A stretch of 64,000 bases of DNA from Minisyncoccota bacterium (GTDB lineage: Bacteria > Patescibacteriota > Minisyncoccia > Phycocordibacterales > Phycocordibacteraceae). Under the pieces are notes generated by a model. The model did not search any database and was not told where the DNA came from. It worked only from the letters and a program-made list of their open reading frames with translations. Positions 1-22,294 of this stretch are shown in pieces. Where the stretch lies: the NCBI GenBank assembly GCA_036399335.1, contig DASWNF010000014.1, forward strand, positions 3,687-67,686, given 5' to 3'. Position 1 is the stretch's first letter, and each line of letters opens with the position of its first letter. The position numbers were made by a program, and so were the translations under genes.

Positions 1-178
1 GGGCTCGCAATTCATTTCCCATTGCATTCATCGAATCACGGTTAACCGTGAGCCCGCGTCGCTCAATTTCTTCAACGATAAATGCGCGGGCCGAATAGTG
101 CTTGAATCCTTTTTCTTCCAGGTATTCAACCACCGTGCCCTTCCCCGCCCCGTTAGTTCCCGTAATGCCTATGATCAT
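1..178 (-). CDS. P-loop nucleoside/nucleotide kinase (cytidylate kinase / dephospho-CoA kinase-like), N-terminal fragment running off the window
   Basis: Minus-strand ATG at 178 overlaps the secF stop (ATGA). Reverse-complement translation MIIGITGTNGAGKGTVVEYLEEKGFKHYSARAFIVEEIERRGL carries a Walker A GxxGAGKGT motif. Not in the ORF track because it is truncated. Confidence 0.55.
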   Translation of the reverse strand, partial: MIIGITGTNGAGKGTVVEYLEEKGFKHYSARAFIVEEIERRGLTVNRDSMNAMGNELRA

Positions 179-1128: not shown

Positions 1129-1129
1129 A

Positions 1130-2461: not shown

Positions 2462-2556
2462 AGATAGGCTCTAGTGTACGAGTTTAGGCTTATTTCGCAA
2501 TATCCTGCCCCCATGCCCACTACCCCATTACATAGGAGGCTCGTCCCTAAGCCGCC

Positions 2557-3357
2557 TTATGGTTGCCGGTTCGCTTCAGCAAGCAGGACGACGTTCTCAA
2601 GGAGGCAGGCGACGGTAATGGGCCCGATGCCGCCCGGGACGGGCGTATACACGCTTGCGACTTCCGCCACGCGCGGATCCACGTCGCCGGCGAGCGAGCC
2701 GCCCAGCTCACTCGTTCCTATATCAATCACGACTGCACCCGGACGGACGTAATCCGGACGTATCAGGTTTGCGACGCCCGCGCCGGATACGATGATATCC
2801 GCGCCTATGCACGCACTCTTGATGTCCCCCTCCTCCTTGGTCACCGCCTGCACGATGGCACCTTCCCGACGGAGCCATTCGGTTGCAGGTAGGCCGACGA
2901 GCCATCCCTGCCCCACGACAACGGCTGCCTTACCGGACGCGCGTACGCCCGCTTCTTCGAGCACTGCCTTAATTGCGCCGGCGACCGGATGGGTGAGCGC
3001 GCCCGTTTCGCGCGTGCGCGATGAGAGCACGTCTGCGTCCTTCGTACTCGGGATGCTGTCGAGTACCTGCTCCGTATCAATATTTCCAGGTAGCGGAAGC
3101 TGCACGATGACGGCATCCTCCGACACCTGCGACAAAAGCTGCACGAGACCCGCCGTCGAATGTTCGTCATACATGCGGACATCCATCCGTACGCCGGCAC
3201 GCACGGCGAGCTGTTGCTTCATTCGGAGGTACGACTGGGTGGCCGGATCCGGAGCAACGGCAATAGCAAGGAAGGAGGGCGCTTCGGGTAACGCCTCCGC
3301 ACGCGTTTTCGTGCGCTCAAGCATGCCCTTCGCGATGGTGCGTCCGTCGATAACCAT
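2557..3357 (-). CDS. folD: bifunctional methylenetetrahydrofolate dehydrogenase/cyclohydrolase FolD
   Basis: 266 aa with LPLPGNIDTEQVLDSIPSTKDADV and a Rossmann GxGxxVG motif (VVVGQGWLVG). Confidence 0.9.
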   Translation of the reverse strand: MVIDGRTIAKGMLERTKTRAEALPEAPSFLAIAVAPDPATQSYLRMKQQLAVRAGVRMDVRMYDEHSTAGLVQLLSQVSEDAVIVQLPLPGNIDTEQVLDSIPSTKDADVLSSRTRETGALTHPVAGAIKAVLEEAGVRASGKAAVVVGQGWLVGLPATEWLRREGAIVQAVTKEEGDIKSACIGADIIVSGAGVANLIRPDYVRPGAVVIDIGTSELGGSLAGDVDPRVAEVASVYTPVPGGIGPITVACLLENVVLLAEANRQP

Positions 3358-3358
3358 G

Positions 3359-4693
3359 TTAGGTGCCGGAGAATGAGGCGAGCGCTCGCAAGGTCTTGAG
3401 GGCTATGGCCATATCAAGCCCGAATGACCGGTTCTTGAGGTAATAGAGGTCGTACGAAAGTTTACGCCGCGTCCGCGGGACGTCAGCCGCGCCGCGTGGC
3501 GCGTCATAATCATATATCTGCGCCCACCCGGAAAGTCCCGGGGCGATCAGGTGACGGATGCTGTAGTACGGGATCTCGCGCTCATAGGTGTGTGCGATGG
3601 CTGGCAGTTCGGGGCGCGGACCGATGAAGGAGAGTTCCCCACGGCATATGTTCCAGAGCTGCGGGAGCTCGTCGATGCGGGTCTTACGGAGGAACTTCCC
3701 GAGCGTGGTCACGCGGTTCCCTTTCTGGAGTTCCGGGTCCCCATGGTCGTTTATGAGCATCGAGCGAAGCTTCACGATGCGGAACGGCCGTCCCCCTTCG
3801 CCGATACGCGTGTGGAAGACGAAGGGCTCCCCGCGCTCGATAAGAAGGAGGATGGCTGCAACCAGGATGAAGGGCGTGGCAAGGACGAGCCCGACAAGCG
3901 CACCCGCAAGGTCGATGAGACGCTTCAAGAAACTGTAAATGACGTTCCGTTTCGGCAGGCATTCAAGTATCCACGCATGGTCGATGTGGTCGAGCGGCAC
4001 CCGGTCGAACAAGCTCTCATAAAAGGCTGAGAACTCGACGAAGGAAACGCCGGACACCATGAGGTCGTAGAGCGCCGGCAATTCGCGTCGCACGTCCTCG
4101 TTCCGCGTATCGATGACGACGAACGACACCCCGCTTTCGGTCGCGCGCCGTATCCGCTCCGAAAGCTGGCCCTCCGCAAGCGCCGAAGGGTCGAGATGCT
4201 CATCAAACGTAATGTAGTACTTCGGCTGCCGGTTGACCTCACTGTGCACTGCGGCAACGAGCGACCCGGTCCCGACGATGAGCGCGCGCTCGCGGCCGGC
4301 AAGCTTGAGCGCAGGCACGACAAAGAAACGCCAGCTGCTGATGAGCGCAACCGAGATGCCAAGGTACAGCGCGAGTATCGTCTTCGGCGCGATCTCAAGC
4401 GGGAGGATGAAGAAGATGACGGCGGCAATGACGGTGTTTGCGAACTGGGCCCCTAAAATGCGGGTACCGAGGATGCGCTTCACGAGGCGGGCCTGCCGCT
4501 CATAAAGGCCGGAGATGAAGAAGATGAGGAGCGAGAACAGGAAGACCGGTACGAAGGCCGTAAGATGCCCGATGAAATAGGCCGTGCCGGGGACGGCAAG
4601 CGCGCGCGCGGCGAGCGCGAGCCAGAGGGAACATATTAAGAGGAGTACGTCCCCGAGGAGCAGAAAGGCCGTCTCACGGCGGGTCGTATGCAT
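3359..4693 (-). CDS. polyprenyl-phosphate sugar phosphotransferase (WbaP/bacterial sugar transferase family)
   Basis: C-terminal catalytic domain LRSMLINDHGDPELQKGNRVTTLGKFLRKTRIDELPQLWNICRGELSFIGPRPELP with multi-TM N-terminus. Start moved to M132 (MHTTRRETAFLLL, ATG at 4693) because the 5086 start would overlap the divergent GT4 gene. Confidence 0.85.
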   Translation of the reverse strand: MHTTRRETAFLLLGDVLLLICSLWLALAARALAVPGTAYFIGHLTAFVPVFLFSLLIFFISGLYERQARLVKRILGTRILGAQFANTVIAAVIFFILPLEIAPKTILALYLGISVALISSWRFFVVPALKLAGRERALIVGTGSLVAAVHSEVNRQPKYYITFDEHLDPSALAEGQLSERIRRATESGVSFVVIDTRNEDVRRELPALYDLMVSGVSFVEFSAFYESLFDRVPLDHIDHAWILECLPKRNVIYSFLKRLIDLAGALVGLVLATPFILVAAILLLIERGEPFVFHTRIGEGGRPFRIVKLRSMLINDHGDPELQKGNRVTTLGKFLRKTRIDELPQLWNICRGELSFIGPRPELPAIAHTYEREIPYYSIRHLIAPGLSGWAQIYDYDAPRGAADVPRTRRKLSYDLYYLKNRSFGLDMAIALKTLRALASFSGT

Positions 4694-4771
4694 TGCTTGG
4701 ATACTATAACGCAGGCAGCGCCTGTAAAGTCGCTTGCTACCCTCGGTCGATGCCGTAGAGTTATCACATAT

Positions 4772-5941
4772 ATGGAACGCCAAGAAAGCCTCGCAGGTAA
4801 GCGCCTCCTCTTCGTCATCACCAAGTCCAACTGGGGCGGTGCCCAGGCTTACGTCTGCACCCTCGCAAAACATTCCCAAAGCCTGGGTATGGAGGTCGCT
4901 GTCGCCCTTGGCGGTACCGGCCGACCGGGAAGCGATACGGGCATCCTGGCTGCTCGGCTTACGGAAGCCGGCATTCGCGTCCACGTCGTCCCTGCCCTTG
5001 CCCGTGACATTTCTCCGCTCCACGAGTGGCGCGCACTCCAAGCACTGACCGCGTTCATCCGGAGCGAACGCCCCGACATCCTCCACCTAAACAGCTCGAA
5101 GGCCGGCGTCTTGGGGGCGATAGCGGGCCGGCGCGCGCGCATAGGCCGTATCGTCTTTACCGTACACGGCTGGCCCCATCGGGAACCGTGCGGGGCGGTG
5201 ATGCGCGCCGTACGCTGGCTTGGGTCCTGGCTGACGGTCGTCCTGTCGCACGCCGTCATAGCCGTCTCCGACTGTGACCGCTGCACCGCACCGGTTATAT
5301 TCTCACGCAAGAAAATCGCGGTCGTCCGTAACGGCATGGGCGACTTCCCCACCCTCGAGAAGGAAGCGGCGCGGCACTTCCTGGCGCCCGACATCCCTGC
5401 CCTCGCGAAGCTCACGTCCTGGGTGCTCATCCCTGCCGAGCTCACGCGCAATAAGGGCATCGATATCGCCATTCGCGCATTTGCTGGCGTCAGTACGAAC
5501 GTCGACCACGCCGCGCTCGTCATGGTGGGCGAGGGCGAAGAGCACGAGCACCTCACGCGACTCATCGAGTCCTACGGGCTCGGCGGCCGCGCCTTCCTGC
5601 TCGGCTTCGTACCGGACGTACGCCGCTACTTGAAAGCCGCCGATATCTTCCTCCTCCCCTCCCGCAAGGAAGGCCTGCCGCTCGCAGTCCTTGAAGCCGG
5701 GCGCGCAGGCCTCCCCGCAATTGCTACGCGCACCGGCGGCATACCCGAAATTATCGAGCACCAAAAAACCGGCTTACTTATTAACCCTGGTGACGTCGAT
5801 GCACTTGCCGACGCCATGACGACACTCCTCACGAACCCCGTGGACGCAACAAAGCTCGGCATGGCGCTCGAGCAGAAGGTGCGCGAGGAATTCTCCGAGA
5901 AGATGATGCTCGACCGTACGCTTCTCCTATACGTTAAATAA
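4772..5941 (+). CDS. glycosyltransferase family 4 (GT4)
   Basis: EGLPLAVLEAGRAGLPAIATRTGGIPEIIEHQKTGLLINPGD is the GT4 E-x7-E region. Start placed at MERQESLAGKRLLFVITKSNWGGAQ (ATG at 4772). Transcribed divergently from the sugar transferase, sharing a 78-bp promoter region. Confidence 0.88.
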   Translation: MERQESLAGKRLLFVITKSNWGGAQAYVCTLAKHSQSLGMEVAVALGGTGRPGSDTGILAARLTEAGIRVHVVPALARDISPLHEWRALQALTAFIRSERPDILHLNSSKAGVLGAIAGRRARIGRIVFTVHGWPHREPCGAVMRAVRWLGSWLTVVLSHAVIAVSDCDRCTAPVIFSRKKIAVVRNGMGDFPTLEKEAARHFLAPDIPALAKLTSWVLIPAELTRNKGIDIAIRAFAGVSTNVDHAALVMVGEGEEHEHLTRLIESYGLGGRAFLLGFVPDVRRYLKAADIFLLPSRKEGLPLAVLEAGRAGLPAIATRTGGIPEIIEHQKTGLLINPGDVDALADAMTTLLTNPVDATKLGMALEQKVREEFSEKMMLDRTLLLYVK

Positions 5942-5944
5942 TAA

Positions 5945-5975
5945 AGGGCGGAGTCACTGACTCCGCCCTTTCCAT
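5945..5975. terminator. rho-independent terminator hairpin (bidirectional)
   Basis: agggcggagtcactgactccgccct followed by a T-run. Lies between the GT4 stop and a convergent small ORF. Confidence 0.7.
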
Positions 5976-6155
5976 TCAGCAGTTCCGCGGTCGGCTGCGC
6001 TTGATCGGCGACTTGGCCCGGGCGTCTGCCCGTATCTTCCACAGCTCTTCACCGGGGAGATTGTGTATGCCCGGGATGCTGCGCGCAGCATTCGGTGCGC
6101 CTTCGCCTGCCCCTGACGTAGAGGAACTGCCGTTATCGGACTTCTTCTTAACCAT
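5976..6155 (-). CDS. candidate small protein (59 aa), Lys/Ser-rich N-terminus
   Basis: Minus ATG at 6155 is preceded by AAGGAGATAGGTC, one of the strongest SD matches in the window. Translation MVKKKSDNGSSSTSGAGEGAPNAARSIPGIHNLPGEELWKIRADARAKSPIKRSRPRNC ends with TGA at 5976. Below the 60-aa cut-off of the ORF track. Confidence 0.4.
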   Translation of the reverse strand: MVKKKSDNGSSSTSGAGEGAPNAARSIPGIHNLPGEELWKIRADARAKSPIKRSRPRNC

Positions 6156-6207
6156 GACCTATCTCCTTGTCTGCCAGGAAGGGTACGGCATACGAGGAAG
6201 GAGTCAA

Positions 6208-7344
6208 CTATCCCTCGTATTCTTGCGTCGCGTTATCGCGCGGGACGCTCCTCCCCTGCTGCGAGAGCGAGGCGACGATACCAAGCGCGAGGAACTCGAT
6301 GAGCACGTGCGAACCGCCCGAGCTCATGAACGGTATCGTCGTACCCGTAACGGGCAGGAGCCCGAGGTTGATGCCCGCGTGGATGCCGATGTGGGCCGTA
6401 AAGAGTATGGCGACACCGATGGCGAATAAGGCATCGAAATTTGCCGCCGCAAGGCGCGAGATCTTAAGGAGCTGGTAGAGCAACAGCCCGTAGAGCGCGA
6501 GCAGGAGCGTGACGCCGACAAACCCCCACTCCTCGGCGAAGGCTGCGAAGATGAAGTCCGTCTCGTACTCAGGCAGGAAGCGGAGCTTAGACTGCGTACC
6601 GTACCCGATGCCCTTCCCGAAGAGCTCGCCGCTGCCGGCGGCGACGGTCGCCTGGTACGCGTTATACCCGCTGCCGCGGATGTCCGCAGCCGGGTTCACG
6701 AAGGCAAGGATGCGCGTACGCTGGTATTCTTGGAGCCCGAATAACCAGAGCCCCGCCGCAGCGACCAGCCCCGTCATGAAGACGATGGCGAGGTGCTTTT
6801 TTGAGATGCCCGAGACGAGCACCATGCCGAACCAGACCGCCGAAAGGATGACGGCCGTGCCGAGGTCTGGCTGCACAAGAATGAGGAGGATAATGGCCGA
6901 GATATAAATGCCTGAAACGACGATATGGTGGATGTACCCTATCTGCATGTGCCGGCGCGAAAAGTACTTGGCAAGGAGCGCGATGACAATGAGCTTTGCC
7001 ACGTCAGCCGGCTGGAACGTAAAGGAGCCGAAGCTGAACCAGCTCCGCGCACCTTGGATCGTGTCGCCGATGACGAGCACCAGGCAAAGGAGCGCGATGA
7101 CGCCGAGGTAGCCCGCGATGATGACCGGCGTGCGCCTGATGAAGCGCATGTCGGTCACGGCGACGAGGAAGTACGCGATAATACCCAGCCCTATCCAGAT
7201 GAGCTGGCGCGGCGCAAGCGACGGCGAGCCGTCGAACGGGTGGATAGTAAGGACCCCAAGGAGCGACAGGACGATGCCAAGCGCGAGCAAGGGCCAGGTG
7301 CCAAGTACGGCCTTGAAGGAATGCGTGCGGACGAGCTCACTCAT
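6208..7344 (-). CDS. FtsW/RodA/SpoVE family peptidoglycan glycosyltransferase
   Basis: 378 aa, ~10 TM, SEDS-family motifs (PADVAKL, GSGYNAYQA, QSKLRFLPE). Confidence 0.88.
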   Translation of the reverse strand: MSELVRTHSFKAVLGTWPLLALGIVLSLLGVLTIHPFDGSPSLAPRQLIWIGLGIIAYFLVAVTDMRFIRRTPVIIAGYLGVIALLCLVLVIGDTIQGARSWFSFGSFTFQPADVAKLIVIALLAKYFSRRHMQIGYIHHIVVSGIYISAIILLILVQPDLGTAVILSAVWFGMVLVSGISKKHLAIVFMTGLVAAAGLWLFGLQEYQRTRILAFVNPAADIRGSGYNAYQATVAAGSGELFGKGIGYGTQSKLRFLPEYETDFIFAAFAEEWGFVGVTLLLALYGLLLYQLLKISRLAAANFDALFAIGVAILFTAHIGIHAGINLGLLPVTGTTIPFMSSGGSHVLIEFLALGIVASLSQQGRSVPRDNATQEYEG

Positions 7345-8114
7345 GGCGCACCGCCGACACGGGGAACGGGCAGGATCTCGTACCGCGCGACGGATGCGGC
7401 AAAGGGCGCGTTCCAGGTAAAGATAAGCGGGCTCGTCCCCTGCGACGGCAAGGTGGGTACGAGGGTCTGGGAGGCGGCCATGGCGTTCCCTGACACGTCA
7501 AAGACCGTGGCCACTAGCACGGTGTTATATACGGGCTCCGCGAAGGGATTCACGAGGGTAGCCGTGATGCGCGGCGCGTCCCCTTCCGTGACCGCTATAT
7601 TGCTGACGGACGGGAGCACGGGACGGGACGCAGGCGGCCTGGTCCAGATGATGGATTCCGCCTTAGGCGTGAGAAAGGCGACACCGGCCTCGGTTCCCCG
7701 CGGCGCTACGTTAGCCGCATAGAACGGCACCACGGTTGCAGCCGGCAAGTCGACGGTCACGGTCTTCGTCGCAATCACCCGGCCTTGGGCATCATGGACC
7801 TCAAGGAGGAACGGCGCGTCTTCCGCTTCGGCGTTCGTGTTGCGGTTCTCGATATACGCGATGATGTCCGTCCTGCCGGGTTGCGGCGTCGTAGGGCGCA
7901 CGAAGTTAACGATGGGCAGCGTGCCGACGTCAGCCGTGCATACGAGAGAGCACGCGCCGCCGCAGTCGATACCGCGTTCGTCCTGGTTTTGCTTCCCGTC
8001 AGAACACGAGGGTACCTGGTAGAAGACGGCGAAGCCGATTATGGCGAGTACGGCGAGCAAGGTCATGCTCGCGACCGTGATGATAAGCGCCTTCCGGCGT
8101 CCTGCCCAAGACAT
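7341..8114 (-). CDS. hypothetical membrane-anchored protein (Cys-rich N-terminal segment)
   Basis: 257 aa with an N-terminal TM. Its stop overlaps the ftsW-like start by 4 nt (ATGA). No recognisable domain. Confidence 0.6.
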   Translation of the reverse strand: MSWAGRRKALIITVASMTLLAVLAIIGFAVFYQVPSCSDGKQNQDERGIDCGGACSLVCTADVGTLPIVNFVRPTTPQPGRTDIIAYIENRNTNAEAEDAPFLLEVHDAQGRVIATKTVTVDLPAATVVPFYAANVAPRGTEAGVAFLTPKAESIIWTRPPASRPVLPSVSNIAVTEGDAPRITATLVNPFAEPVYNTVLVATVFDVSGNAMAASQTLVPTLPSQGTSPLIFTWNAPFAASVARYEILPVPRVGGAP

Positions 8115-8157
8115 ACGGACAGTATATAACCTTTGCCGCCCGCTTTATAGGACATAA

Positions 8158-8189
8158 GAAAACCTCAGCCGGTACCGGCTGAGGTTTTC
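8158..8189. terminator. terminator hairpin downstream of rRNA operon (second of two)
   Basis: aaaacctcagccggtaccggctgaggtttt is a perfect stem flanked by A/T runs. Confidence 0.6.
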
Positions 8190-8200
8190 TTATGTGTACG

Positions 8201-8230
8201 AAAAAAGCAGCCTATAAGGCTGCTTTTTTC
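8201..8230 (-). terminator. rho-independent terminator immediately 3' of 5S rRNA
   Basis: aaaaaagcagcctataaggctgcttttttc. Confidence 0.7.
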
Positions 8231-8242
8231 TGTCCCGAAGAA

Positions 8243-8364
<122 letters not shown>

Positions 8365-8755
8365 CTGGGCGCGTTCGACAGGGCGTCGACGCGTTAAATA
8401 CGTAAAGGTAATAGATAGCAATCACTTCAGTTAGTGCTATACAGAATTCCGCACCGGAACCATTGGACATATTAGTACTCCTCGACTGAACACATTGCTG
8501 TGCGTACATCTAGAGCCTATCAACCTAGTAATCTGCTAGGTGTCTCATAACGATTCCTAATCTTTGAGTGGGCTTCCCGCTTATATGCTTTCAGCAGTTA
8601 TCCCGTCCCGACGTAGCTACCCAGCGATGCTCCTGGCGGAACAGCTGGTAGACCAGAGGTCAGTTCACCCCGGTCCTCTCGTACTAGGGGCAACACTCAT
8701 CAAGAATCAACGCCTGTAGTAGATAGGAGACCAACCTGTCTCACGCATTTCGTTT

Positions 8756-9175
8756 GCTCCGATTACTCGGAGGATCGGACTGTAACTTCACCCGGGCTGG
8801 GTGACTGACATTCAGTCTCTACGGGCGCCAAGTGCACTCGCGTGAGCGAGCTGCTTTCTCCGCTTCCCTCGGTATTGCCCGCCGAGATTTTCTTAGCGGT
8901 ATTCCGCTTTAGAAAATCCAAGTGCAGTCGCTTTCTTAAGCGAGCTGCCCTCCTTATTAAGGCAGGTGGGGTTCCACCGATATGAGTCAGTTTGCTTGTA
9001 CGCATTCCTGCGTACAACCGCCGTGTCATGGTTGGTTCTATTCTTGTTTCAAGACGAAAAGACATTCACTCATCGCACTTTTTCGAATTCTGACAACAGA
9101 AATCTCGAAGGGATTCAAACGGTGTGAGAATCAATTCAAAGAATAAATCCTAAGTATCAATTCCCACACGGTTTG
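8756..9175 (-). other. ~420-nt insertion in 23S domain V at the L2593-like (I-CreI-type) intron site; putative ORF-less group I intron
   Basis: Conserved exon sequence GGTACGCGAGCTGGGTT is interrupted before ...AACGAAATGCGTGAGACAGGTTGG. The inserted block is AT-richer. The only ORF inside (8763..9065) has no homing-endonuclease motif. Confidence 0.6.
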
Positions 9176-9832
9176 AACCCAGCTCGCGTACCTTTTTAAT
9201 TGGCGAACAGCCAAACGCTTGGGACCTTCTCCAGCCCCGCGCTAAGGTGAGCCGACATCGAGGTGCCGAACTCCGCCGTCGCTATGGACGCTTGGGCGGA
9301 ACTAGCCTGTTATCCCCAGGGTAACTTTTATCCGTTAATCTCTGGCCGCATCTAAGGCGGACCATCGGTTCACTATGCTCTGCTTTCGCATCTGCTCGGG
9401 ATGTACCCCTCACAGTTAAGCCCACTTATGCCATTACACTATCGGCACGGTTTCCATTCGCGCCTAGTGGACCTTAATAGACTCCTCCGTTACTTTTTAG
9501 GAGGATAGCGCCCCACCAAAACTACCCGCCAGACACTGTTCCCGATTAGTTCTTAACCGGGTTAGAGACTGCACAATCCAAGAGTGGTATTTCACTGGCG
9601 ACTCCACGAGAGCCAAAACCCTCGCTTCAAAGTCTCCCACCTATGCTACGCATGGACCACACAGCCCCAATATCAAGCTGTAGTAAAGCTCCTGGGGTCT
9701 TTTCGTCTAACTACAGGTAACCGGCATCTTCACCGGTATTGCATTTTCACCGAGCGAGTCCTCGAGACAGTTTTCCACTCATTACGCCATTCGTGCACGT
9801 CTGAACTTACCAGACAAGGAATTACGCTCTAC

Positions 9833-10022
9833 TATTCCTCACAGTAGGACCATATCTTCACCCCATTGCTGGGGGCACGACGTATGGCCTCTCATTTGAG
9901 TCGTGGATTCAATTAACCTTTCGGTTAAAAGAGGTAGCTTCTTTGACGTTACCCTCTCGGGCTGTTTACGGTCTCCTATAATCGTCCCAATCCGTTCCGT
10001 ATCCGATTGCTCAGATACGGAA
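9833..10022 (-). other. ~190-nt insertion in 23S at the L1923-like (I-CeuI-type) site between GGTCCTAAGG and TAGAGCGTAATTCCTTGTC; putative small intron or intervening sequence
   Basis: E. coli-type sequence TAACTATAACGGTCCTAAGG|TAGCGAAATTCCTTGTC is split by 190 nt that end in ...AATAG and contain internal hairpins (ccgtatctgagcaatcggatacgg). Confidence 0.5.
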
Positions 10023-11463
10023 CCTTAGGACGATTATAGTTATCGCCGACATTCACCGGGGCTTATACGGCCTAGCAATACAAGTAAAACTCATATCACC
10101 GTCCGTGCTTGACCTTCCGGCATTGGTCAGGCGTCACCCCCTATACATCCTCTTACGAGTTCGCAGGGAGCTGTGTTTTTGGTAAACAGTTGGCAGAAAA
10201 TCTTTCGCTGCGGCCCCCATTGCTGGGGGCAGGCCTTATCGCTAACTTACGGCCGCTTTTTTGCCGAGTTCCTTGAGGACCTCTCACTCGTTCGTCTTAG
10301 TCTACTCGACCTGAACACCTGTGTCGGTTTCCGGTACGGTCGTCATATGCTGAAGCTTAGAAGTTTTTCTTGGAACCGCGCTCCTTACTCTCTGCTCCCC
10401 CGTGGGAGAACATTGCCGCTTCGCTCGGGGTTAATGTCTTCCGGATTTGCCTAGAAGACCCCCTCACTAACGGACCCAAATCCAATAATGGGCAATAAGT
10501 ACAGCAATCCGTCACTCCATCGCACATATGAGCGGTCATGGAATATTAACCATGTGTCCATCGGGTGCGGCTTTCGCCATCCCCTTAGGCCCGACTAACC
10601 CTCAGTTGATCATCATAGCTGAGGAAACCTTGTTCTTTCGACGTGCGGGGTTCTCACCCGCATTGTGGTTACTTGTGCCTGCATTCTCACTTCGCAACGC
10701 TCCACCATGGGTCACCCCTTTGGCTTCATCGCGGATGCGAACGCTCTCCTACCGCATACACCTCCCGAAGGAGATGCACACCCGCAGTTTCGGTACTACG
10801 CTTAACCCCGATCATCTTCGGCGCAAGGACTCTCGATGAGTGAGCTGTTACGCTTTCTTTAAATGGTGGCTGCTTCTAAGCCAACATCCTCATTGTCAAT
10901 GAATCCTCACTTCCTTAAGTTGTACTGAGCGTAGATTTAGGGACCTTAACTGGCGATCCAGGGCTCTTCCCCCTTCGACGAGTGGAGCTTCGCCCCCACC
11001 GTCTAACTGCCATGCTGTAACCTCTCGGTATTCGGAGTTTGATAGGGACAACGAGGTTTCCCCCTGTTTGCCCCTTCCAGTGCTCTACCCCCGGAGGGAT
11101 CACACGACGCTAGCCCAAAAGCTATTTCGGAGAGAACCAGCTATTACCAGGTTCGATTAGCTTTTCACTCCTTGCCACAGGTCATCCCAAGACGTTGTAC
11201 GATCTACGGGTTCGGTCCTCCATGTGTCTTTCGACACACTTCAACCTGCCCATGGCAAGCTCACCTGGCTTCGGGTCGTATGTATGCTACTGACGCGCTA
11301 TTAACACTCGGTTTCCCTGCGGCTCCGTCCCGTAACGGACTTAGCCATAGGCAACATACATACACTCGCAGGCTCATTCTTCAATAGGCACGCTACAACG
11401 GATACAAGACCCGCCGTAACCCTTTGTAAGTACACGGTTTCAGTTCTATTTCACTCCCCTCTC

Positions 11464-11509
<46 letters not shown>

Positions 11510-11734
11510 TTATGCATTATTTAGCCTTACCGGTTAGTTCCGGCAGATTCACTCGAGCTATTCGTGTCTCGAGCTACTCAAGAATAGGAGCACAAAAGAG
11601 TCGTTCATTTCGCGTACGGGGCCATTACCCTCTGTGGCGTTGCTTCCCAGCAACTTCCGCTATAATCGACTTTTGTAACTTTTGCCGTACAAGTACGGAG
11701 CTCCTACCTTACAACCCCCCTATCCGAAGGCAGA

Positions 11735-11768
<34 letters not shown>

Positions 11769-12322
11769 AAGGGAATCGCGGGAGTTGCCTTCCATCTGTT
11801 CGAAGCATCGAACAGACAGAAGGCAACTCGCTATTGTTTTCTATTCCTCTGGGTACTGAGATGTTTCACTTCCCCAGGTTCGCTTCCTACCTCAAATGGA
11901 TAGGATGACCATTACTGGCCGGGTTTCCCCATTCGGACACCTCCGGATCAAAGGCTACATATCGCCTCCCCGAAGCATTTCGCAGATTAGTCACGTCCTT
12001 CATCGCATGCATAAGCCAAGGCATCCACCGTGCACCCTTCAGTTTCCAGTGCGGAAACCTGAATACCACTTAACTTTATTTTTGTGATTGCAATATCATC
12101 TCACCCCCGCCATAAGCGGGAGCTCGTTGATTTACCTTTACGTATTCAACTGTCAAAGTGCACGTGTTTCTTGGCACGAAAAAAGCCGCCTCAGGGGCGG
12201 CGGAAAAGCTTTACAGCCGCTCCGTTATCCGCTCCGCTTGGTGAATAATTTCGTGGTTGTAAACACGTAGGAGGAGTATATACGTAGGGGTTTTCTGTGT
12301 CAAATAGGGGCAAGGGCAAACG

Positions 12323-12350
12323 GAAAACCGCGCCTAACGGCGCGGTTTTC
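12323..12350 (-). terminator. rho-independent terminator after the 12377..13057 gene
   Basis: gaaaaccgcgcctaacggcgcggttttc. Confidence 0.7.
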
Positions 12351-12376
12351 CAATAGTCGGGCTTCCCCGAAAATAC

Positions 12377-13057
12377 CTAGCGTACCTGTTCGTGCATCCG
12401 CTCGATGATGCGCGCAGCTGCCTGTTGGCCGCCGAGGCCGAACGAGAGGCCAAAGGCGAGGGCAAGCGCGACTACGAAGGCGGTAAAGAGAGGCTGGATG
12501 AGCTCGCTCGCGATTTCAAGCTGGTTGAGCGCGGCGAGGATCGCGAAGATCCAGATAGCCCAACGGGCCAGGGATCCGAGGAGTTTGGCCGAGCGAAGAT
12601 TCGCTGCCGCCGCAGAAGCCGCAACCACCCTCTGTACTACGTCCGCGAGGACGGCCGCCACCAGAAGGATGAGGACAGCTACGATCACCTTCGGGAGATA
12701 CCCGAGAACGACGTTGCTCAAGAAGTCGGTTACCTGGTCGAGGCCGAGCACGCCAAATGCGGCAACGAGGAAGACGATGATGAAGAACCATTTCACGAGG
12801 CCGCCGAGGAATGCGCCTGCATTCATCCGGAGTCCTGCGCGCTCCACGATCGTCTCGACTCCTGCGGAGCGAAGCGCCTGGTCAACTTTGGCCGCATTCA
12901 CGGCCTGCGCGACGAGGCGCCCGAGACCTGCGCCGACGATCCATCCGAGGATGAAGAGCACGAGCGCAGCGAGTAGATTCGGAAGGAAGGCGATGACCCC
13001 GTGGAACATTGCGCGGAATGCATCCTCGAGAATAATCGCCCAGTTGTTTATGAACAT
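12377..13057 (-). CDS. membrane protein with repeated conserved-TM-helix (MscS N-terminal-like) segments
   Basis: ORF 12377..13102. Start moved to MFINNWAIILEDAF (ATG at 13057). Four or five TM helices with repeated AxxLxxxG patterns. Confidence 0.65.
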   Translation of the reverse strand: MFINNWAIILEDAFRAMFHGVIAFLPNLLAALVLFILGWIVGAGLGRLVAQAVNAAKVDQALRSAGVETIVERAGLRMNAGAFLGGLVKWFFIIVFLVAAFGVLGLDQVTDFLSNVVLGYLPKVIVAVLILLVAAVLADVVQRVVAASAAAANLRSAKLLGSLARWAIWIFAILAALNQLEIASELIQPLFTAFVVALALAFGLSFGLGGQQAAARIIERMHEQVR

Positions 13058-13175
13058 ATACGTTTTATACCGTGTAATCTGTAATACGCCGCAGCTCGTC
13101 AATAGGGCTGCTTACCTAAAAGTGTACCAAGCGGGCTAAACTTCGGATGAAGCTCTTCCCTAGAGTGTGGATAGG

Positions 13176-13203
13176 AAAAACCGGCGCCTAGCGCCGGTTT
13201 TAA
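13176..13203. terminator. bidirectional terminator hairpin
   Basis: aaaaaccggcgcctagcgccggtttta. Confidence 0.65.
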
Positions 13204-13778
13204 TTTGGGCTGAGGCCGATCTTGTCGACCAGGACCTGGTGCGGGAAGTCGAGGACGTCCCGGACGAGGCGGTCGTACACGCTTACGCGGTACCTGAAGT
13301 CTTCGGTGGCGAAGGCGGCGAACCGGAGCTCGCGCCCGAGCTCGGCCTCGAGCTTATGCACGCTCGCCTCAAGGGCCTTATCGTCGATGCGGTCCCCTAC
13401 CACGAGAAGGTCGATCTTCGACTCGACCGCGTCGCTGAATACGCCCGAGAGGACGACGAGGCGGAGCGTGCCCGCGCGCTTCAGGGTGGCGAGGATGACG
13501 GCGTCAGATAGACCTGACGAGGAGCTGAGGAAATTGCAGAGCGCCGCGAAGTGTTCGAACTTCGAGTCGGCGGCGAAGGTCGGGCCTCCCTTCCCCGCCT
13601 TCTTCTTGACCACGCCTGCAGTGACGAGGGTGTTGATCTCGCGCCGGGTCGCGTCCTTGGGCGTCTTCGTGCGTAGGGCAGCGTCGGCAAGGGTAAACGC
13701 CTGGTCGTCATTGAAGAGGAAGAGGCGGAGGAGTTTCAGGCGGGCGTTACTGCCGAACAGGCGTGCGAGGGGATCCAT
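13200..13778 (-). CDS. hypothetical protein with N-terminal winged-helix and C-terminal minimal nucleotidyltransferase-like segment
   Basis: 192 aa. LKLLRLFLFND...FTLADAALRTKTP...REINTLVTAGVV looks like a wHTH. LVVLSGVFSDAVESKIDLLVVGD resembles the GS-x9-13-D-x-D NTase motif. Confidence 0.5.
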   Translation of the reverse strand: MDPLARLFGSNARLKLLRLFLFNDDQAFTLADAALRTKTPKDATRREINTLVTAGVVKKKAGKGGPTFAADSKFEHFAALCNFLSSSSGLSDAVILATLKRAGTLRLVVLSGVFSDAVESKIDLLVVGDRIDDKALEASVHKLEAELGRELRFAAFATEDFRYRVSVYDRLVRDVLDFPHQVLVDKIGLSPN

Positions 13779-13825
13779 GAATGTTTCCCCATTCTACCCC
13801 CCTCCCCCGCCCGCGCAAGGTAACG

Positions 13826-13857
13826 AGAAAACCCGGCTGCAGAGCCGGGTTTTCTCG
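13826..13857. terminator. terminator hairpin after rplL
   Basis: gagaaaacccggctgcagagccgggttttctc. Confidence 0.7.
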
Positions 13858-13901
13858 TCCACGATACGTGGACCGCACGAAGTCGGATGCCGACGAGGAC
13901 G

Positions 13902-14405
13902 CTACTTGAGCGTAACCTTGCCGCCTGCCTCCTCCATCTTCGCCTTGAGTTCGTTTCCTTCCTCCTTGCTGACGTTCTCCTTGAGCACGGATGGAACGCC
14001 GTCGACAAGGTCCTTAGCCTCCTTGAGGCCGAGGGCGAGTACTTCCTTGACTGCCTTGATGACGGCAATCTTGTTTGCACCCGAGTCGGTGAGCTCAACC
14101 GTAACGGTAGACTTCTCGTCCTCACCGCCGCCTGCTCCGCCTGCTGCAGGACCGGCTACGGCTACGGCTGCCGCCGAAACGCCGAACTTCTTCTCGAAGA
14201 CCTTAACGAGCTCATGGAGTTCCATGACGCTCATCTTTTCGATCTCCTCGACGAACTTCTTGAACTTCTCGGGGACTTCGACTTCCGCCTCTGCTTCCGC
14301 AGGAGCTTCCGTCTTCTCCTCAGCTGCCGGAGCGGCCGGTGCCTCTTCGGCTGGAGCCGCTGCCGCTTCCTCAGTTCCCTCTTCCTGCTTTACTTCATCT
14401 GCCAT
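13902..14405 (-). CDS. rplL: 50S ribosomal protein L7/L12 with ~40-aa acidic/Ala-Pro N-terminal extension
   Basis: C-terminal [56 protein letters not shown] and hinge [13 protein letters not shown] are canonical. The N-terminal 40 aa [45 protein letters not shown] have no counterpart in standard L12. Confidence 0.9.
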
Positions 14406-14427
14406 GGTAAATAAATGACGTTATTAA

Positions 14428-14922
14428 TTACGCACCTTTCTTCTCTGCGACTGCATTAAGGACGATTGCGAGTCCCTGTATCGGGCTGTTGATGACATTC
14501 ACGAACATGCCACGCAGTACGTGTACCGGCGGTATGGTCGCGATGTTCGTCATCGCGGGGGCATCGAGGTACGAGCCCTCGAAGACGCCGCCGACGATCG
14601 AAAGCGCACCCTTGTGCTTCCTGCCGTGGTCATAGATGCCGCGGGCAGCGAGCGTCGGGTCTTCCGAAGTCCACGCAAGCGCTATCTCACCCGGCATGTC
14701 AGGCAAGGTGCCTGCGTAACCGCGTTCGTTGAGCGCGCGCTCGATGAGGGTTTTCTTTGCGACGTAGTAGCCGACACCCTCCCCCTTGAGCGACTTGCGC
14801 ATCGCAGACGTATCCGCGACCGAAAGGCCCTTGAAGTGGACGAAGACCACCGACACCGCGCCCTCGAGGACGTCCTTAATCTTAGCGACGATGTCCTGCT
14901 TTTTTTCCTTGGTAATTGCCAT
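14428..14922 (-). CDS. rplJ: 50S ribosomal protein L10
   Basis: ORF 14428..15111. Start moved to MAITKEKKQDIVAKIKDVLEG (ATG at 14922). L10 family and directly upstream of rplL. Confidence 0.85.
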   Translation of the reverse strand: MAITKEKKQDIVAKIKDVLEGAVSVVFVHFKGLSVADTSAMRKSLKGEGVGYYVAKKTLIERALNERGYAGTLPDMPGEIALAWTSEDPTLAARGIYDHGRKHKGALSIVGGVFEGSYLDAPAMTNIATIPPVHVLRGMFVNVINSPIQGLAIVLNAVAEKKGA

Positions 14923-15113
14923 ATGGTTTGTTGTTGTATACGAAACGGAAACGGCCCCCTTAGGGAGACCGTTTCTGAGGAGACATGCGAGACCGGGCGC
15001 AGGGCGCTCCGGTTTCGTCCCTCGGCCAGGCTTGTGCTTCCATATAAAGAAGCTGCTGGCTGTCTTCGGTCCGTACCCAGGCACTCTAGCCGAAACGGGG
15101 CCAGGGCGCAACC
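14923..15113 (-). promoter_or_regulatory. rplJL 5' leader (candidate L10(L12)4 autoregulatory leader)
   Basis: A ~190-nt GC-rich, hairpin-rich untranslated region precedes rplJ. The position matches the conserved L10 leader in other bacteria. Structure was not verified. Confidence 0.4.
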
Positions 15114-15239
15114 TTAAGCGCCTGCCGTAAAGGTGAAGAGGAAGAGCGAAACGCCGATGATAAGCACGAACGTGGCGAGGAACTTGAAGAAATGGGTGAT
15201 GTACTCCCCTACCGGCTGGTCATCGTGCTGCGGAGGCAT
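15114..15239 (-). CDS. candidate 41-aa single-TM peptide
   Basis: Minus ATG at 15239. MPPQHDDQPVGEYITHFFKFLATFVLIIGVSLFLFTFTAGA ends at TAA 15114. Lies between a terminator and the rplJ leader. No SD is visible. Confidence 0.25.
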   Translation of the reverse strand: MPPQHDDQPVGEYITHFFKFLATFVLIIGVSLFLFTFTAGA

Positions 15240-15255
15240 GCCTGCATCCTAGCAC

Positions 15256-15285
15256 GCAAAAAGCCGCCCGGAGGCGGCTTTTTGC
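15256..15285 (-). terminator. rho-independent terminator after 15298..16401 gene
   Basis: gcaaaaagccgcccggaggcggctttttgc. Confidence 0.75.
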
Positions 15286-15297
15286 AGAACGTTTTCG

Positions 15298-16401: not shown

Positions 16402-16472
16402 AGAAGTGTGATTAGAGACTGAGTATAGCTTTTTATTGTAGACGTCTCAATTGAGCATCCGTTACCAAAACA

Positions 16473-16500
16473 AAAAGACCACCCGAAGGTGGTCTTTTTG
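16473..16500. terminator. terminator hairpin after 16544..18520 gene
   Basis: aaaaagaccacccgaaggtggtctttttg. Confidence 0.75.
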
Positions 16501-16543
16501 TCAGCTAGTTACGAACTAGGTTCGCACTATATCTGCTTTGAGA

Positions 16544-18520: not shown

Positions 18521-19139
18521 AACAATTTTCTTTTTAATTTCTTTGAACGGGACGTATGCGGTGCGAATAATTATTAAACGTGCATCGCATGCGCCCCGCC
18601 TATTTTACTAATTGCCGGCCAACGGTTTCCCGCTGGCCCGCAGAGGCGAACTTTCACACTATCCGACGGGACGTCCTATCGACTCACGCCCCCTCGGCTA
18701 GTTGGCAAACGTTTCCCTATCATCCTGAGTCCTTCCGTAACTGGGCAGTGCTTCCGTTCTGGGCCGTCTCTATGGAAGACGGTTATCCCTGCCCTTCCTT
18801 ACTAGGGGAATATTGGCAGGAACGTTGAACATATGGGTGCGGGCGAGCACCCTATACAGGGGTCACCCTCTTCCGTACGTATCGCACGGAAGAGGTGAAA
18901 ACCACATGAAATGTCAACGAGCTAACAACCGTTCAGCAAGCGCCCAATCGTTTCAGTACACCAACGTAGTATACAGACGAGCTGCCCGCTTACTGTCAGG
19001 CTTTAATGTGGATAACCGTTTGGAATTTCTTAGAGTTTGCTCGGGACATCCTTCGCTCTCTATAAGAGAATCCGCCCGATACCACTACATGCATTATAGC
19101 TTAACTCAGCCGTAAAATCAATGTTCCGCTCAGGGTGCA

Positions 19140-22270: not shown

Positions 22271-22294
22271 CTTCTACCTCTTACCACTCGCTCT

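What the first reader, a model, noticed from the sequence alone, without database searches (positions are those of the whole stretch)
8756..9175. ~420-nt ORF-less insertion in 23S domain V at the I-CreI/L2593-type intron site
The universally conserved GGTACGCGAGCTGGGTT|(T)AGAACG..GTGAGACAG is split by an AT-richer block. This position is a classic group I intron homing site. The insert has no homing-endonuclease ORF: the only internal ORF (8763..9065) lacks LAGLIDADG, GIY-YIG or HNH motifs. rRNA introns are rare in bacteria but have been reported in candidate-phyla lineages.
Basis: partly seen in the sequence, partly recalled or inferred. Interest (0 to 1): 0.55.

Follow-up and report, generated by a model that had tools for sequence, protein, structure and literature searches.

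The report
ORF-less group I intron in 23S
A 422-base group I (self-splicing-type) intron with no homing-endonuclease gene interrupts the 23S rRNA gene of an uncultured candidate-phyla-radiation-like bacterium at position L2593, a site where such introns are already known to be common in that group, so the finding is real but largely ordinary; its one unusual trait is an extra 5' element that base-pairs with the upstream exon.

Summary
The 23S rRNA gene lies on the minus strand (8450..12051). The insert is a group I intron. The 5' exon ends in U and the intron ends in G. An internal guide, CACG|GCGG, pairs with both exons and gives a U·G wobble at the splice site. P2-P9 are supported by covariation in 30 relatives: 95.5% of cells paired versus 35-40% in slid controls, and 32 of 46 pairs compensatory. 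A covariance model built without the window scores it 150 bits (E=2e-39). There is no endonuclease ORF or remnant. The kind is already known: position 2593 is a catalogued recurrent intron site in CPR 23S genes, where ORF-less group I introns are common. More than 120 species genomes carry a G-terminated insert at this site. The architecture is not that of the I-CreI/cyanobacterial L2593 introns, because P7.1/P7.2 are absent. The unusual part is a 5' module (hairpin plus ACCGUUUGAAUCC) that pairs with exon -13..-1 and co-varies with host exon variants. I found no description of it. The same gene also holds a 193-nt L1931 mini-intron with no P4-P6 at the canonical place.

The parts
8450..12051 (-). 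23S rRNA gene, 3602 nt including two introns and domain I expansions
   Evidence: Rfam LSU_rRNA_bacteria, 2329.5 bits, full-length match
8746..9167 (-). Group I intron at L2593, 422 nt. The first intron base is window 9167 and omega-G is 8746.
   Evidence: Junctions read directly. RF00028 25 bits, E=2.7e-4. Family CM R1 150.3 bits, E=1.9e-39.
9168..9180 (-). Last 13 nt of the 5' exon, GGGUUCAAACCGU. It ends at U2593 (window 9168), is bound by element A (-13..-1) and by the IGS (-4..-1).
9124..9167 (-). H1, the 5'-terminal hairpin (intron 1-44). It is continuous with the exon-A helix across the 5' splice site.
   Evidence: Minimum-free-energy folds. The continuity recurs in relatives.
9111..9123 (-). 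Element A, ACCGUUUGAAUCC (intron 45-57). An accessory guide complementary to exon -13..-1 with a mismatch at -3.
   Evidence: Co-varies with the exon: exon-blind test gives A:U 18, A:C 0, G:C 31, G:U 5, Fisher p=3.5e-10. A 7/7 complement occurs in 51 of 105 introns versus 4.7 expected. Replicated 9/9. The predicted precursor fold forms it.
9026..9110 (-). Rest of the 5' module (intron 58-142). Includes the hairpin UUCGAGAUUUCUGUUGUCAGAAUUCGAA and the conserved AAUGUCUUUUCGUCUUGAAA...AGAACCAACC stretch.
   Evidence: 80-85% identical in L098, L189 and L171. Folded. Function unknown.
9018..9025 (-). Internal guide sequence B, CACG|GCGG (intron 143-150). CACG pairs with 3' exon CGUG (P10). GCGG pairs with 5' exon CCGU (P1) and gives U·G at the splice site.
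   Evidence: The only such site in the intron. Found in 72 of 105 introns. Sits at position 24-37 in members without A. Hosts with exon ACGU have GCGU.
8996..9017 (-). P2 hairpin with a GGAA (GNRA) loop
   Evidence: All 8 pairs show compensatory changes
8986..8991 (-). P3 5' strand (ACUGAC)
   Evidence: All 6 pairs compensatory. Coordinates.
8869..8980 (-). P4 (UCGGUG/UACCGA) and P5 (CCC/GGG), enclosing the lineage-specific 88-nt L5 extension at 8881..8968
   Evidence: P4 98.9% paired. All 3 P5 pairs compensatory. The extension is absent from L098, L019, L171 and L189. Folded.
8823..8868 (-). P6/P6a with a hairpin extension
   Evidence: 5 of 7 pairs compensatory. Coordinates.
8814..8819 (-). 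P7 5' strand, GAGACU, with a bulged A
   Evidence: Invariant in 30 of 30 sequences. Pairs with 8777..8781 as a pseudoknot with P3.
8804..8809 (-). P3 3' strand (GUCAGU). It is only 4 nt after P7, so there is no P7.1/P7.2.
8789..8803 (-). P8 hairpin (CACCC/GGGUG)
   Evidence: All 5 pairs compensatory
8777..8788 (-). J8/7 (AAGUUAC) and P7 3' strand (AGUCC)
   Evidence: Matches the Rfam consensus gAAGAUAUAGUC. Invariant.
8757..8772 (-). P9 hairpin with a GUAA (GNRA) loop
   Evidence: 5 of 6 pairs compensatory
8746..8746 (-). Omega-G, the last intron nucleotide
8763..9065 (-). 100-aa ORF, judged spurious. It overlaps P2 through P9.
   Evidence: No Pfam family. Spans the L5 extension that the closest relatives lack.

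Best explanation
The insert is a group I intron in the 23S rRNA gene of a GC-rich Patescibacteria (CPR)-like bacterium, at L2593 in helix 93 of the peptidyl-transferase centre. It is expected to remove itself from the pre-rRNA by the standard two-step guanosine-initiated mechanism. In this reading the guide CACG|GCGG (intron 143-150) aligns the two exons: GCGG pairs with exon CCGU with a U·G wobble at the cleavage site (P1), and CACG pairs with 3' exon CGUG (P10). The P3-P9 and P4-P6 domains form the catalytic core, and the terminal G occupies the P7 G-binding site for exon ligation. The intron has lost, or never had, the LAGLIDADG homing-endonuclease gene that some family members carry, so it is now inherited rather than actively homing. 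Ahead of the guide it carries a ~140-nt 5' module that the simplest family members lack. The module's hairpin H1 and element A (ACCGUUUGAAUCC) pair with exon positions -13..-1 across the splice site. My inference is that A acts as an accessory exon clamp. It would hold exon -13..-5 while the 4-bp P1 forms on -4..-1, so that the 2.9-kb 5' exon does not dissociate after the first step. Shown here: the insertion, its site, the core structure, the guide complementarity, the A-exon covariation and the absence of an ORF. Inferred: catalytic activity, and whether A and P1 form together or one after the other.
For: Site and junctions. Generic group I model on the correct strand, E=2.7e-4. RNAalifold on 30 relatives recovered P2, P3, P4, P5, P6, P8 and P9 without guidance, with 33 of 45 pairs compensatory. 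The full topology including the P3/P7 pseudoknot gave 95.5% of cells paired versus 34.6-40.2% when slid, 32 of 46 pairs compensatory, and 0 of 500 shuffles as high on all five measures. A CM built from 20 relatives without the window scores 8749..9025(-) at 150.3 bits, E=1.9e-39. Guide B is the only site in the intron complementary to the exon end with U·G. It is present in 72 of 105 introns, lies at position 24-37 in members without A, and reads GCGU where the exon reads ACGU. For element A, 51 of 105 introns have a 7/7 complement to exon -10..-4 versus 4.7 expected by chance. The exon-blind cross-tabulation gave A:U 18, A:C 0, G:C 31, G:U 5 (p=3.5e-10), and at -8 C:G 48, U:A 5. An independent set replicated this 9/9. 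A compensatory switch is visible between the window (UUCAAAC/GUUUGAA) and L189 (UUCAGAC/GUCUGAA), whose 23S is 93% identical. The predicted precursor fold forms the helix, z=-8.1. The intron is optional: empty L2593 sites with the same exon variant occur in L188 and L232. No ORF family or HEG remnant was found. From the literature, CPR rRNA insertions are removed from transcripts and 2593 is a recurrent group I site (PMC11270868).
Against: No RNA-level evidence exists for this locus, so splicing is inferred. The Rfam match (25 bits) is below the family's gathering score of 50. P7 and most of P4 never vary, so they are supported by conservation and position only. The covariation tests do not correct for phylogeny. 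Element A overlaps P1 at exon -4..-1, and the predicted minimum-energy fold forms A rather than P1. A could therefore compete with catalysis rather than assist it. The clamp function is a hypothesis only. The host's assignment to CPR rests on 23S similarity to named MAGs at 83-87%, not on a phylogeny.
Confidence: 0.9

Rival explanations
1. The exon-A helix, with H1, is the real P1, as in a conventional group I intron where the guide lies just 3' of a P1 hairpin. On this reading CACGGCGG serves only as a separate P10 guide or a tertiary element, and the hairpins between A and B are P2/P2.1-type peripheral helices.
For: A plus H1 has the form of a P1 stem-loop with the splice site inside a continuous duplex. 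A co-varies with the exon. The two bases opposite G(-2) and U(-1) are conserved as C in 47 of 51 and A in 42 of 51, which pair.
Against: In helix A the splice-site U faces A in 42 of 51 introns and G in only 4. B always offers the U·G wobble, which by established knowledge is near-universal in group I introns. Position -3 is mismatched in 43 of 51. Members without A use B alone, at the standard position. GCGG stays invariant in A-bearing introns, 29-30 of 30. That would not be expected if only CACG mattered. B is followed directly by P2 and P3, the canonical connectivity.
Confidence: 0.12
2. The element is a group I-derived insertion that is no longer spliced and stays in mature 23S rRNA. This has been reported for the L1931 intron of Simkania negevensis, per the title of Everett et al. 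1999 as cited in PMC11270868.
For: No RNA data exist for this locus. The Rfam score is sub-threshold. The 5' splice site is predicted to be sequestered in a long duplex.
Against: Every core helix, the guide and P7 are kept by compensatory change or invariance across about 70 divergent relatives. That implies selection on the ribozyme. The insert splits helix 93, next to A2602 and U2585 in the peptidyl-transferase centre, where 422 extra nucleotides are unlikely to be tolerated (inference). CPR rRNA insertions are reported as removed from transcripts (PMC11270868).
Confidence: 0.05
3. It is an intervening sequence or expansion segment removed by RNase III without re-ligation, giving a fragmented 23S, and not a ribozyme.
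For: IVSs are the commonest insertions in bacterial 23S genes and are reported in CPR (PMC11270868). The exon-A/H1 duplex of about 24 bp is long enough to resemble an RNase III substrate.
Against: Known IVS sites are elsewhere; the paper places the CPR ones at its sites 23IS2 and 23IS4. The two ends of the insert do not pair with each other to form the usual IVS stem. A complete, co-varying group I core with a guide sequence and omega-G is present. A break inside helix 93 would sever the peptidyl-transferase centre (inference).
Confidence: 0.02
4. The insertion is an assembly artefact, a chimeric join of a 23S gene with unrelated sequence.
For: The window comes from a short-read metagenome assembly (ERZ27253082 k141_303455), and rRNA regions are prone to mis-assembly.
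Against: Homologous introns sit at the identical nucleotide in more than 100 independent assemblies. These include the close relatives L189 and L171 from other projects. The junctions restore a perfect helix 93. The intron's guides match this host's own exon variant.
Confidence: 0.01

Closest known systems
Group I introns at position 2593 of CPR 23S rRNA genes: site 23IS12 of Tsurumaki et al. 2024, J Bacteriol (PMC11270868), following Brown et al. 2015 as cited there
   Same: Same host group, same gene, same nucleotide position and same class. That survey counts 222 ORF-less group I introns in CPR 23S genes and names 2593 as a recurrent site. The window's intron is one more of these.
   Different: That work classified insertions by Rfam hits and ORF content only. 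It gives no secondary structure, guide sequence or 5' module. This intron would fall below Rfam's gathering score (25 versus 50 bits).
L2593 group I introns of cyanobacteria (Synechococcus sp. C9, S. lividus C1, Thermosynechococcus elongatus; Haugen et al. 2007, PMC1995217) and, from my own knowledge, the Chlamydomonas chloroplast Cr.LSU intron that encodes I-CreI
   Same: Identical insertion site after U2593, and the same exon context AACGU|CGUGAGACAG.
   Different: Those are 744-748 nt, encode a single-motif LAGLIDADG endonuclease, and have a ~65-nt P7.1/P7.2 extension with a short P5. The window's intron is 422 nt with no ORF. It has only 4 nt between P7 and P3', so no P7.1/P7.2. It also has an expanded L5 and a 5' exon-binding module.
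Compact bacterial tRNA group I introns of the IC3 type (Azoarcus tRNA-Ile, Anabaena tRNA-Leu); from my own knowledge, not tested here
   Same: The overall core layout is similar: P2 and P9 hairpins capped by GNRA loops (GGAA, GUAA), a short P5 in minimal family members, no P5abc, no P7.1/7.2, and the AGAGACU ... AGUCC P7 strings.
   Different: Those lie in a tRNA anticodon loop rather than rRNA, have no 5' accessory module, and have a short P1 loop. Subgroup membership was not tested with any classifier.
Extended guide sequences engineered onto trans-splicing group I ribozymes (PMC3895272, PMC6155759)
   Same: The idea is the same: an extra 5'-terminal guide that adds base pairs with the substrate beyond the short P1 to improve binding and specificity.
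   Different: Those are artificial, and (from my own knowledge) bind the substrate 3' of the splice site. Element A is natural, acts in cis, and binds the exon 5' of the splice site (-13..-4).
LAGLIDADG-bearing members of the same CPR L2593 family (for example L010, L035, L052, L060)
   Same: Same guide CACGGCGG, same site, and BLAST similarity to the window's guide-P2-P3-P4 stretch (L010 28-86 versus window intron 142-199).
   Different: They carry a 145-159-aa YIAGFLDGDGS endonuclease ORF and mostly lack element A: 19 of 22 ORF-bearing introns have no A, and 48 of 51 A-bearing introns have no ORF. Their guide instead extends 3' (GCGG-C-UUG) to reach exon -6..-8.

Membership tests
Group I intron | The 5' exon ends in U, which forms a U·G wobble with an internal guide sequence (P1) | tested here: met
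   Exon ...CCGU pairs with GCGG at intron 147-150, giving U·G at the splice site. It is the only such site in the intron. It is conserved in 72 of 105 relatives and changes to GCGU with exon ACGU.
Group I intron | Terminal guanosine (omega-G), with P10 pairing between the guide and the 3' exon | tested here: met
   The intron ends ...AAAUG. CACG (143-146), directly 5' of the P1 guide, is complementary to 3' exon CGUG. Omega-G in relatives is uninformative because the search pattern required it.
Group I intron | Conserved core: P3-P7 pseudoknot, P4-P5-P6 stack and P8, in canonical order | tested here: met
   RNAalifold recovered all nested helices. The full topology gave 95.5% paired versus 35-40% slid, 32 of 46 pairs compensatory, 0 of 500 shuffles.
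Group I intron | Guanosine-binding site in P7 | tested here: inconclusive
   P7 (G-A-GACU/AGUCC, with a bulged A) is invariant in 30 of 30 sequences and matches the Rfam consensus strings. Invariance cannot prove the pairing or the binding site.
Group I intron | Score at or above Rfam RF00028's gathering threshold | tested here: not met
   25.0 bits versus 50, E=2.7e-4. No hit in the gathering-threshold scan. The shortfall is explained by large insertions in L1, L5 and L6. A family-specific model gives 150 bits.
Group I intron | GTP-dependent self-splicing | not testable with these tools
   Needs in-vitro transcription and splicing, or RNA-seq.
CPR L2593 intron family (model R1, built here from 20 relatives excluding the window) | Significant full-length match to the family covariance model | tested here: met
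   Window 8749..9025(-), 150.3 bits, E=1.9e-39, model positions 1-180 of 180
IA-type L2593 intron (cyanobacterial / I-CreI-type) | P7.1/P7.2 extension in the P7 region | tested here: not met
   Only GAAU separates P7 from P3', and P3' abuts P8. The feature is as described in PMC1995217.
IA-type L2593 intron (cyanobacterial / I-CreI-type) | Encodes a LAGLIDADG homing endonuclease | tested here: not met
   No ORF with a Pfam family. No tblastn remnant of 22 family LAGLIDADG proteins.
RNase III-processed 23S intervening sequence | The two ends of the insert pair with each other in a long stem, at a known IVS site | tested here: not met
   The 5' end pairs locally (H1) and with the exon, not with the 3' end. 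The site is helix 93, not the paper's IVS-type sites 23IS2 or 23IS4.

The most novel reading that the evidence does not exclude
About half of the CPR L2593 introns, this one included, may recognise their 5' exon with two separate guides. The canonical 4-bp P1 guide (GCGG on exon -4..-1) would be supplemented by a second guide about 90 nt upstream (GUUUGAAUCC on exon -13..-4). The two would stack into one pseudoknotted, quasi-continuous exon-binding helix. That would be a natural counterpart of the engineered extended guide sequence, and I found no description of one. The small L1931 intron in the same gene appears to be built the same way: [GA]GGAC on exon -10..-5 plus GCU[AG]CCU on the junction. 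If so, this would be a recurrent design of CPR rRNA introns, possibly one that compensates for loss of an endonuclease/maturase or holds a very long 5' exon after the first splicing step.
Probability: 0.3. Interest if true: 0.55.

Novelty: new member of a known kind. Interest (0 to 1): 0.35.

Why it matters
As an intron call it matters mainly for annotation. Generic tools miss or under-score it (25 bits in Rfam), so CPR 23S genes like this one are easily mis-annotated as oversized or fragmented. Exact splice boundaries are also needed to reconstruct the mature peptidyl-transferase-centre sequence. The family-level observations are of more general interest. A co-varying accessory exon guide would be a natural solution to a known weakness of group I ribozymes, the short P1 that holds the 5' exon. 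It could also inform the design of trans-splicing or RNA-circularising ribozymes. Empty, ORF-less and endonuclease-bearing versions of the same site all occur among related lineages, which gives a clear snapshot of the homing-intron life cycle in CPR bacteria.

Tried and rejected
1. The Rfam gathering-threshold scan of the whole window found only 23S and 5S. The intron appeared only in an E-value scan of the insert.
2. I first took CACG|GCGG as the sole guide and the ~140 nt before it as an idle P1-loop insertion. I dropped that view when element A turned out to co-vary with the exon.
3. My first A-exon statistic required pairing in order to find the element, so it was circular. I redid it with an exon-blind motif and on an independent sample.
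4. RNAalifold paired the guide's GGC with the P7 3' strand GUC. I rejected this as an artefact of its inability to draw the P3/P7 pseudoknot and replaced it with P7.
5. A global MAFFT alignment of the unspliced gene to E. coli smeared the intron over several gaps. I repeated it with the intron removed.
6. The E. coli copy used is 2906 nt and runs +1 at this point, so raw coordinates would have given 2594. I corrected this using the A2602 landmark.
7. A search for endonuclease remnants in the intron gave only trivial hits.
8. A literature search for a natural accessory 5'-exon guide found only engineered extended guide sequences.
9. For the L1931 mini-intron, Rfam gave nothing at E<=1. I could not establish a conserved fold for its AU-rich 'var' domain or locate a P4-P6 equivalent.
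10. I considered that the mini-intron might borrow P4-P6 in trans from the L2593 intron. L232 has the mini-intron with an uninterrupted L2593 site, which argues against a strict dependence.
11. The subgroup (IC3-like) is a resemblance recalled from memory only. No classifier was available.
Full report
OBSERVATION

Rfam finds a full-length bacterial 23S rRNA on the minus strand at 8450..12051 (2329 bits) and a 5S at 8254..8361. The 64-kb window has no 16S and no tRNA. The 23S spans 3602 nt against a 2925-position model.

Read in RNA sense, domain V runs ...GGUACGCGAGCUGGGUUCAAACCGU, then 422 nt beginning GUGGGAAUUGA and ending CAAACGAAAUG, then CGUGAGACAGGUUGG. The bases flanking each junction differ, so the boundaries are unambiguous. 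The insert is window 9167 down to 8746 on the minus strand.

Removing the insert restores a helix 93 that is colinear and equal in length with E. coli. Aligned to an E. coli rrl copy, and using the A2602 landmark to correct that copy's +1 offset, the last exon base is canonical U2593. The insert has GC 0.48, against 0.52 for the exons and 0.58 for the window. It folds far better than shuffles, with z = -6.2 alone and -8.1 with flanks. The only ORF of 60 aa or more (8763..9065, minus strand, 100 aa) has no Pfam family. There is no tblastn trace of the LAGLIDADG proteins found in related introns.

WHAT IT IS

Rfam's group I model matches the RNA-sense strand at 8756..9081 with E = 2.7e-4. At 25 bits it is below the gathering score of 50. 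The match aligns the P7/J7-3/P3'/P8/J8-7/P7'/P9 strings.

To obtain relatives I searched one genome per species for GCGTGAGACAGKTYGGTC, which is a terminal G placed directly before the 3' exon. In 105 loci the 5' exon is within reach, and the insert sits at exactly this nucleotide with lengths of 213-1034 nt. Most hosts are Patescibacteria/CPR. A second, unrelated-looking intron type occurs in Acidimicrobiaceae, Omnitrophota, Chloroflexota and others.

Thirty core sequences, from the guide to omega-G, were aligned. RNAalifold recovered P2, P3, P4, P5, P6/P6a, P8 and P9 without guidance, with 33 of 45 pairs compensatory. For the full group I topology including the P3/P7 pseudoknot:
- 95.5% of cells pair, against 34.6-40.2% when the 3' partners are slid by 1-3 columns.
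- 32 of 46 pairs show changes on both sides.
- None of 500 shuffles reaches the observed value on any of the five measures.

P7 and most of P4 are invariant. A covariance model built from 20 relatives without the window scores window 8749..9025(-) at 150.3 bits, E = 1.9e-39, over its full length. The insert is therefore a group I intron of a family that is widespread in CPR 23S genes.

THE GUIDE SEQUENCE

The intron has exactly one site complementary to the exon end with a U·G wobble: CACG|GCGG at intron 143-150 (window 9025..9018).
- GCGG pairs with exon CCGU (P1).
- CACG, immediately 5' of it, pairs with 3' exon CGUG (P10).

The 8-mer is thus the wobble complement of the ligated junction, as expected of an internal guide sequence. 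It is present in 72 of 105 introns. In the simplest members (L010, L035, L052, L060, L075, L084) it lies at position 24-37, the conventional place. Where the exon reads ACGU, the guide reads GCGU. It is followed directly by P2, J2/3 and P3.

THE UNUSUAL 5' MODULE

Between the 5' splice site and the guide lie 142 nt that the simple members lack. Nucleotides 1-44 form a hairpin (H1). Nucleotides 45-57, ACCGUUUGAAUCC (element A), are complementary to exon -13..-1 with one mismatch at -3. Exon, H1 and A together make a continuous duplex of about 24 bp with the splice site inside it. This is what the precursor is predicted to form.

A perfect complement to exon -10..-4 occurs upstream of the guide in 51 of 105 introns, against 4.7 expected from shuffles. 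When the element is located by its own motif without reference to the exon:
- Exon -6 = A always faces U (18:0).
- Exon -6 = G faces C 31 times and U 5 times (Fisher p = 3.5e-10, not corrected for phylogeny).
- At -8, C faces G 48 times and U faces A 5 times.
- L014, with exon UUAAAAC, has GUUUUAA.

An independent set of L2593 introns, from metagenome loci selected on a different site, reproduces this 9 of 9. The closest host relative, L189 (23S 93% identical), has exon UUCAGAC with GUCUGAA where the window has UUCAAAC with GUUUGAA. The A-exon pairing is therefore real.

Three observations argue that A is not the catalytic P1. In helix A the splice-site U faces A in 42 of 51 introns and G in only 4. 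Position -3 is mismatched in 43 of 51. GCGG remains invariant in A-bearing introns.

My reading is that B is P1/P10 and A is an accessory exon guide. A's solid pairing (-13..-4) and B's (-4..-1) abut, so the two could stack into one pseudoknotted exon-binding helix. Alternatively, A could form first during transcription and then be exchanged at -4..-1. Simple duplex energies are compatible with the exchange: CCGU/GCGG is -3.6 kcal/mol, against about -1.2 contributed by the two A-helix pairs it would replace. Which of these happens is inference.

In members without A, the guide instead extends 3' (GCGG-C-UUG) to reach exon -6..-8. A-bearing introns are mostly ORF-less (48 of 51), and ORF-bearing introns mostly lack A (19 of 22). 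This association is confounded by family structure.

PERIPHERY, HOST AND LIFE CYCLE

The closest introns share the 5' module and core at 80-85% identity: L098, L019, L171 and L189. They lack the window's 88-nt L5 extension (8881..8968). L189 instead has a ~190-nt P6 insertion. Peripheral loops therefore turn over quickly.

The window derives from ENA assembly ERZ27253082, contig k141_303455, 263 kb. Its spliced 23S is 93% identical to L189, 90% to L171, and 83-87% to the nearest named genome, Ca. Kaiserbacteria. The host is therefore most likely a GC-rich Patescibacteria member, with moderate confidence.

In loci sampled for another site, L2593 is uninterrupted in about 35. These include genes with this host's exact exon variant, L188 and L232. 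Empty sites, ORF-less introns and LAGLIDADG-bearing introns (YIAGFLDGDGS, 145-173 aa) thus coexist. That is the pattern expected from the homing-endonuclease gain-and-decay cycle (established knowledge).

COMPARISON WITH WHAT IS KNOWN

Tsurumaki et al. 2024 report insertions in 82% of CPR 23S genes. Of those insertions, 45% match Rfam's group I model and 222 are ORF-less group I introns. Their recurrent sites include 2593, and they state that such insertions are removed from transcripts (PMC11270868). The class, site and host group are therefore already described, and this is a new member of a known kind.

It is not the classical L2593 intron. The cyanobacterial ones are ~745 nt, encode LAGLIDADG enzymes and have a large P7.1/P7.2 extension (PMC1995217). 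Here only 4 nt separate P7 from P3'. From my own knowledge, the core most resembles compact IC3-type bacterial introns, with GNRA-capped P2 and P9 and no P5abc. That is a resemblance, not a test. I found no description of a natural accessory 5'-exon guide. The nearest concept is the engineered extended guide sequence of trans-splicing ribozymes.

SIDE FINDING

The same 23S has a second, unflagged insert of 193 nt (window 10021..9829, minus strand). It splits UCCUAAGGU|AGCGUAAUUCC, the classic L1931 site, and it ends in G. Rfam's group I model does not see it at E <= 1. The L2593 family model hits it at 31 bits, E = 3.7e-7.

It belongs to a family of at least 49 distinct small inserts of 185-330 nt. 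On 20 members, helices alpha, P2, P3, P7, P8 and P9 are 87.4% paired versus 30-41% slid, 22 of 33 pairs are compensatory, and 0 of 500 shuffles reach the observed values.

It shows the same two-guide logic. GCU[AG]CCU is the reverse complement of the ligated junction AGGU|AGC, and the base opposite the splice-site U toggles between A and G. [GA]GGAC is complementary to exon -10..-5. Only about 8 nt separate P3 from P7, where P4-P6 should be. An AU-rich conserved domain sits instead between the two guides. I could not resolve its fold.

VERDICT

The intron call carries about 0.9 confidence. Splicing itself and the role of element A remain inferred.

Noticed in passing
window 9829..10021 (minus strand): A second, unflagged insert in the same 23S: 193 nt at the classic L1931 site (UCCUAAGGU|AGCGUAAUUCC), ending in G. 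It belongs to a family of at least 49 small (185-330 nt) structured inserts. P2, P3, P7, P8, P9 and a long-range helix are supported by covariation (87% paired versus 30-41% slid). Only about 8 nt lie where P4-P6 should be. Rfam's group I model misses it; the L2593 family model gives 31 bits. It may be a group I-derived ribozyme with a relocated or replaced P4-P6 domain.
   Followed up: partly
window 8918..8948 and 8828..8854 (minus strand; intron ~220-250 and ~314-340): A ~30-nt hairpin module (GCAGCUCGCU...GCGA[C/G]UGCACUUGG) is duplicated inside the intron, once in the L5 extension and once in the P6 extension. Part of the L5 extension is 88% identical over 52 nt to introns labelled Saccharibacteria (L042, L028). 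This suggests small structured modules shuffle between intron loops.
   Followed up: partly
window 11775..11827 and 11677..11730 (minus strand): Two ~53-nt expansions in 23S domain I, after E. coli ~233 and ~277. The first is a near-perfect long hairpin, GUUGCCUUCUGUCUGUUCGAUGCUUCGAACAGAUGGAAGGCAAC. Whether they are expansion segments or RNase III-type intervening sequences was not examined.
   Followed up: no
window 1..64000: The 23S-5S pair has no 16S gene within 52 kb upstream, and ARAGORN finds no tRNA gene anywhere in the 64 kb. The rRNA genes appear unlinked.
   Followed up: no
window 43836..47303 (minus strand): An 1155-aa class I aminoacyl-tRNA synthetase (tRNA-synt_1 plus Anticodon_1) with a histidine-phosphatase domain (His_Phos_1, E=2e-25) inserted at residues 499-655 inside the catalytic domain.
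   Followed up: no
loci L002, L005, L006, L008, L012, L015, L018, L020, L028, L042, L118 and others: Many MAGs labelled Candidatus Saccharibacteria carry 213-1034-nt inserts at L2593, several with the full group I core. Tsurumaki et al. 2024 reported that Saccharibacteria rRNA insertions are almost all short and non-intronic. Either the sampling differs or the MAG labels are unreliable.
   Followed up: partly
loci L017, L025, L027, L034, L036, L043, L095, L099, L104 (Acidimicrobiaceae) and L032, L113, L089, L007: A distinct L2593 intron type occurs outside CPR. It starts AGAUCACACUGCGU, with the guide at position ~5-11, and comes in two sizes: ~378 nt, and ~735 nt with a LAGLIDADG ORF. It may be the cyanobacterial/chloroplast-like type. 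This was not tested.
   Followed up: no
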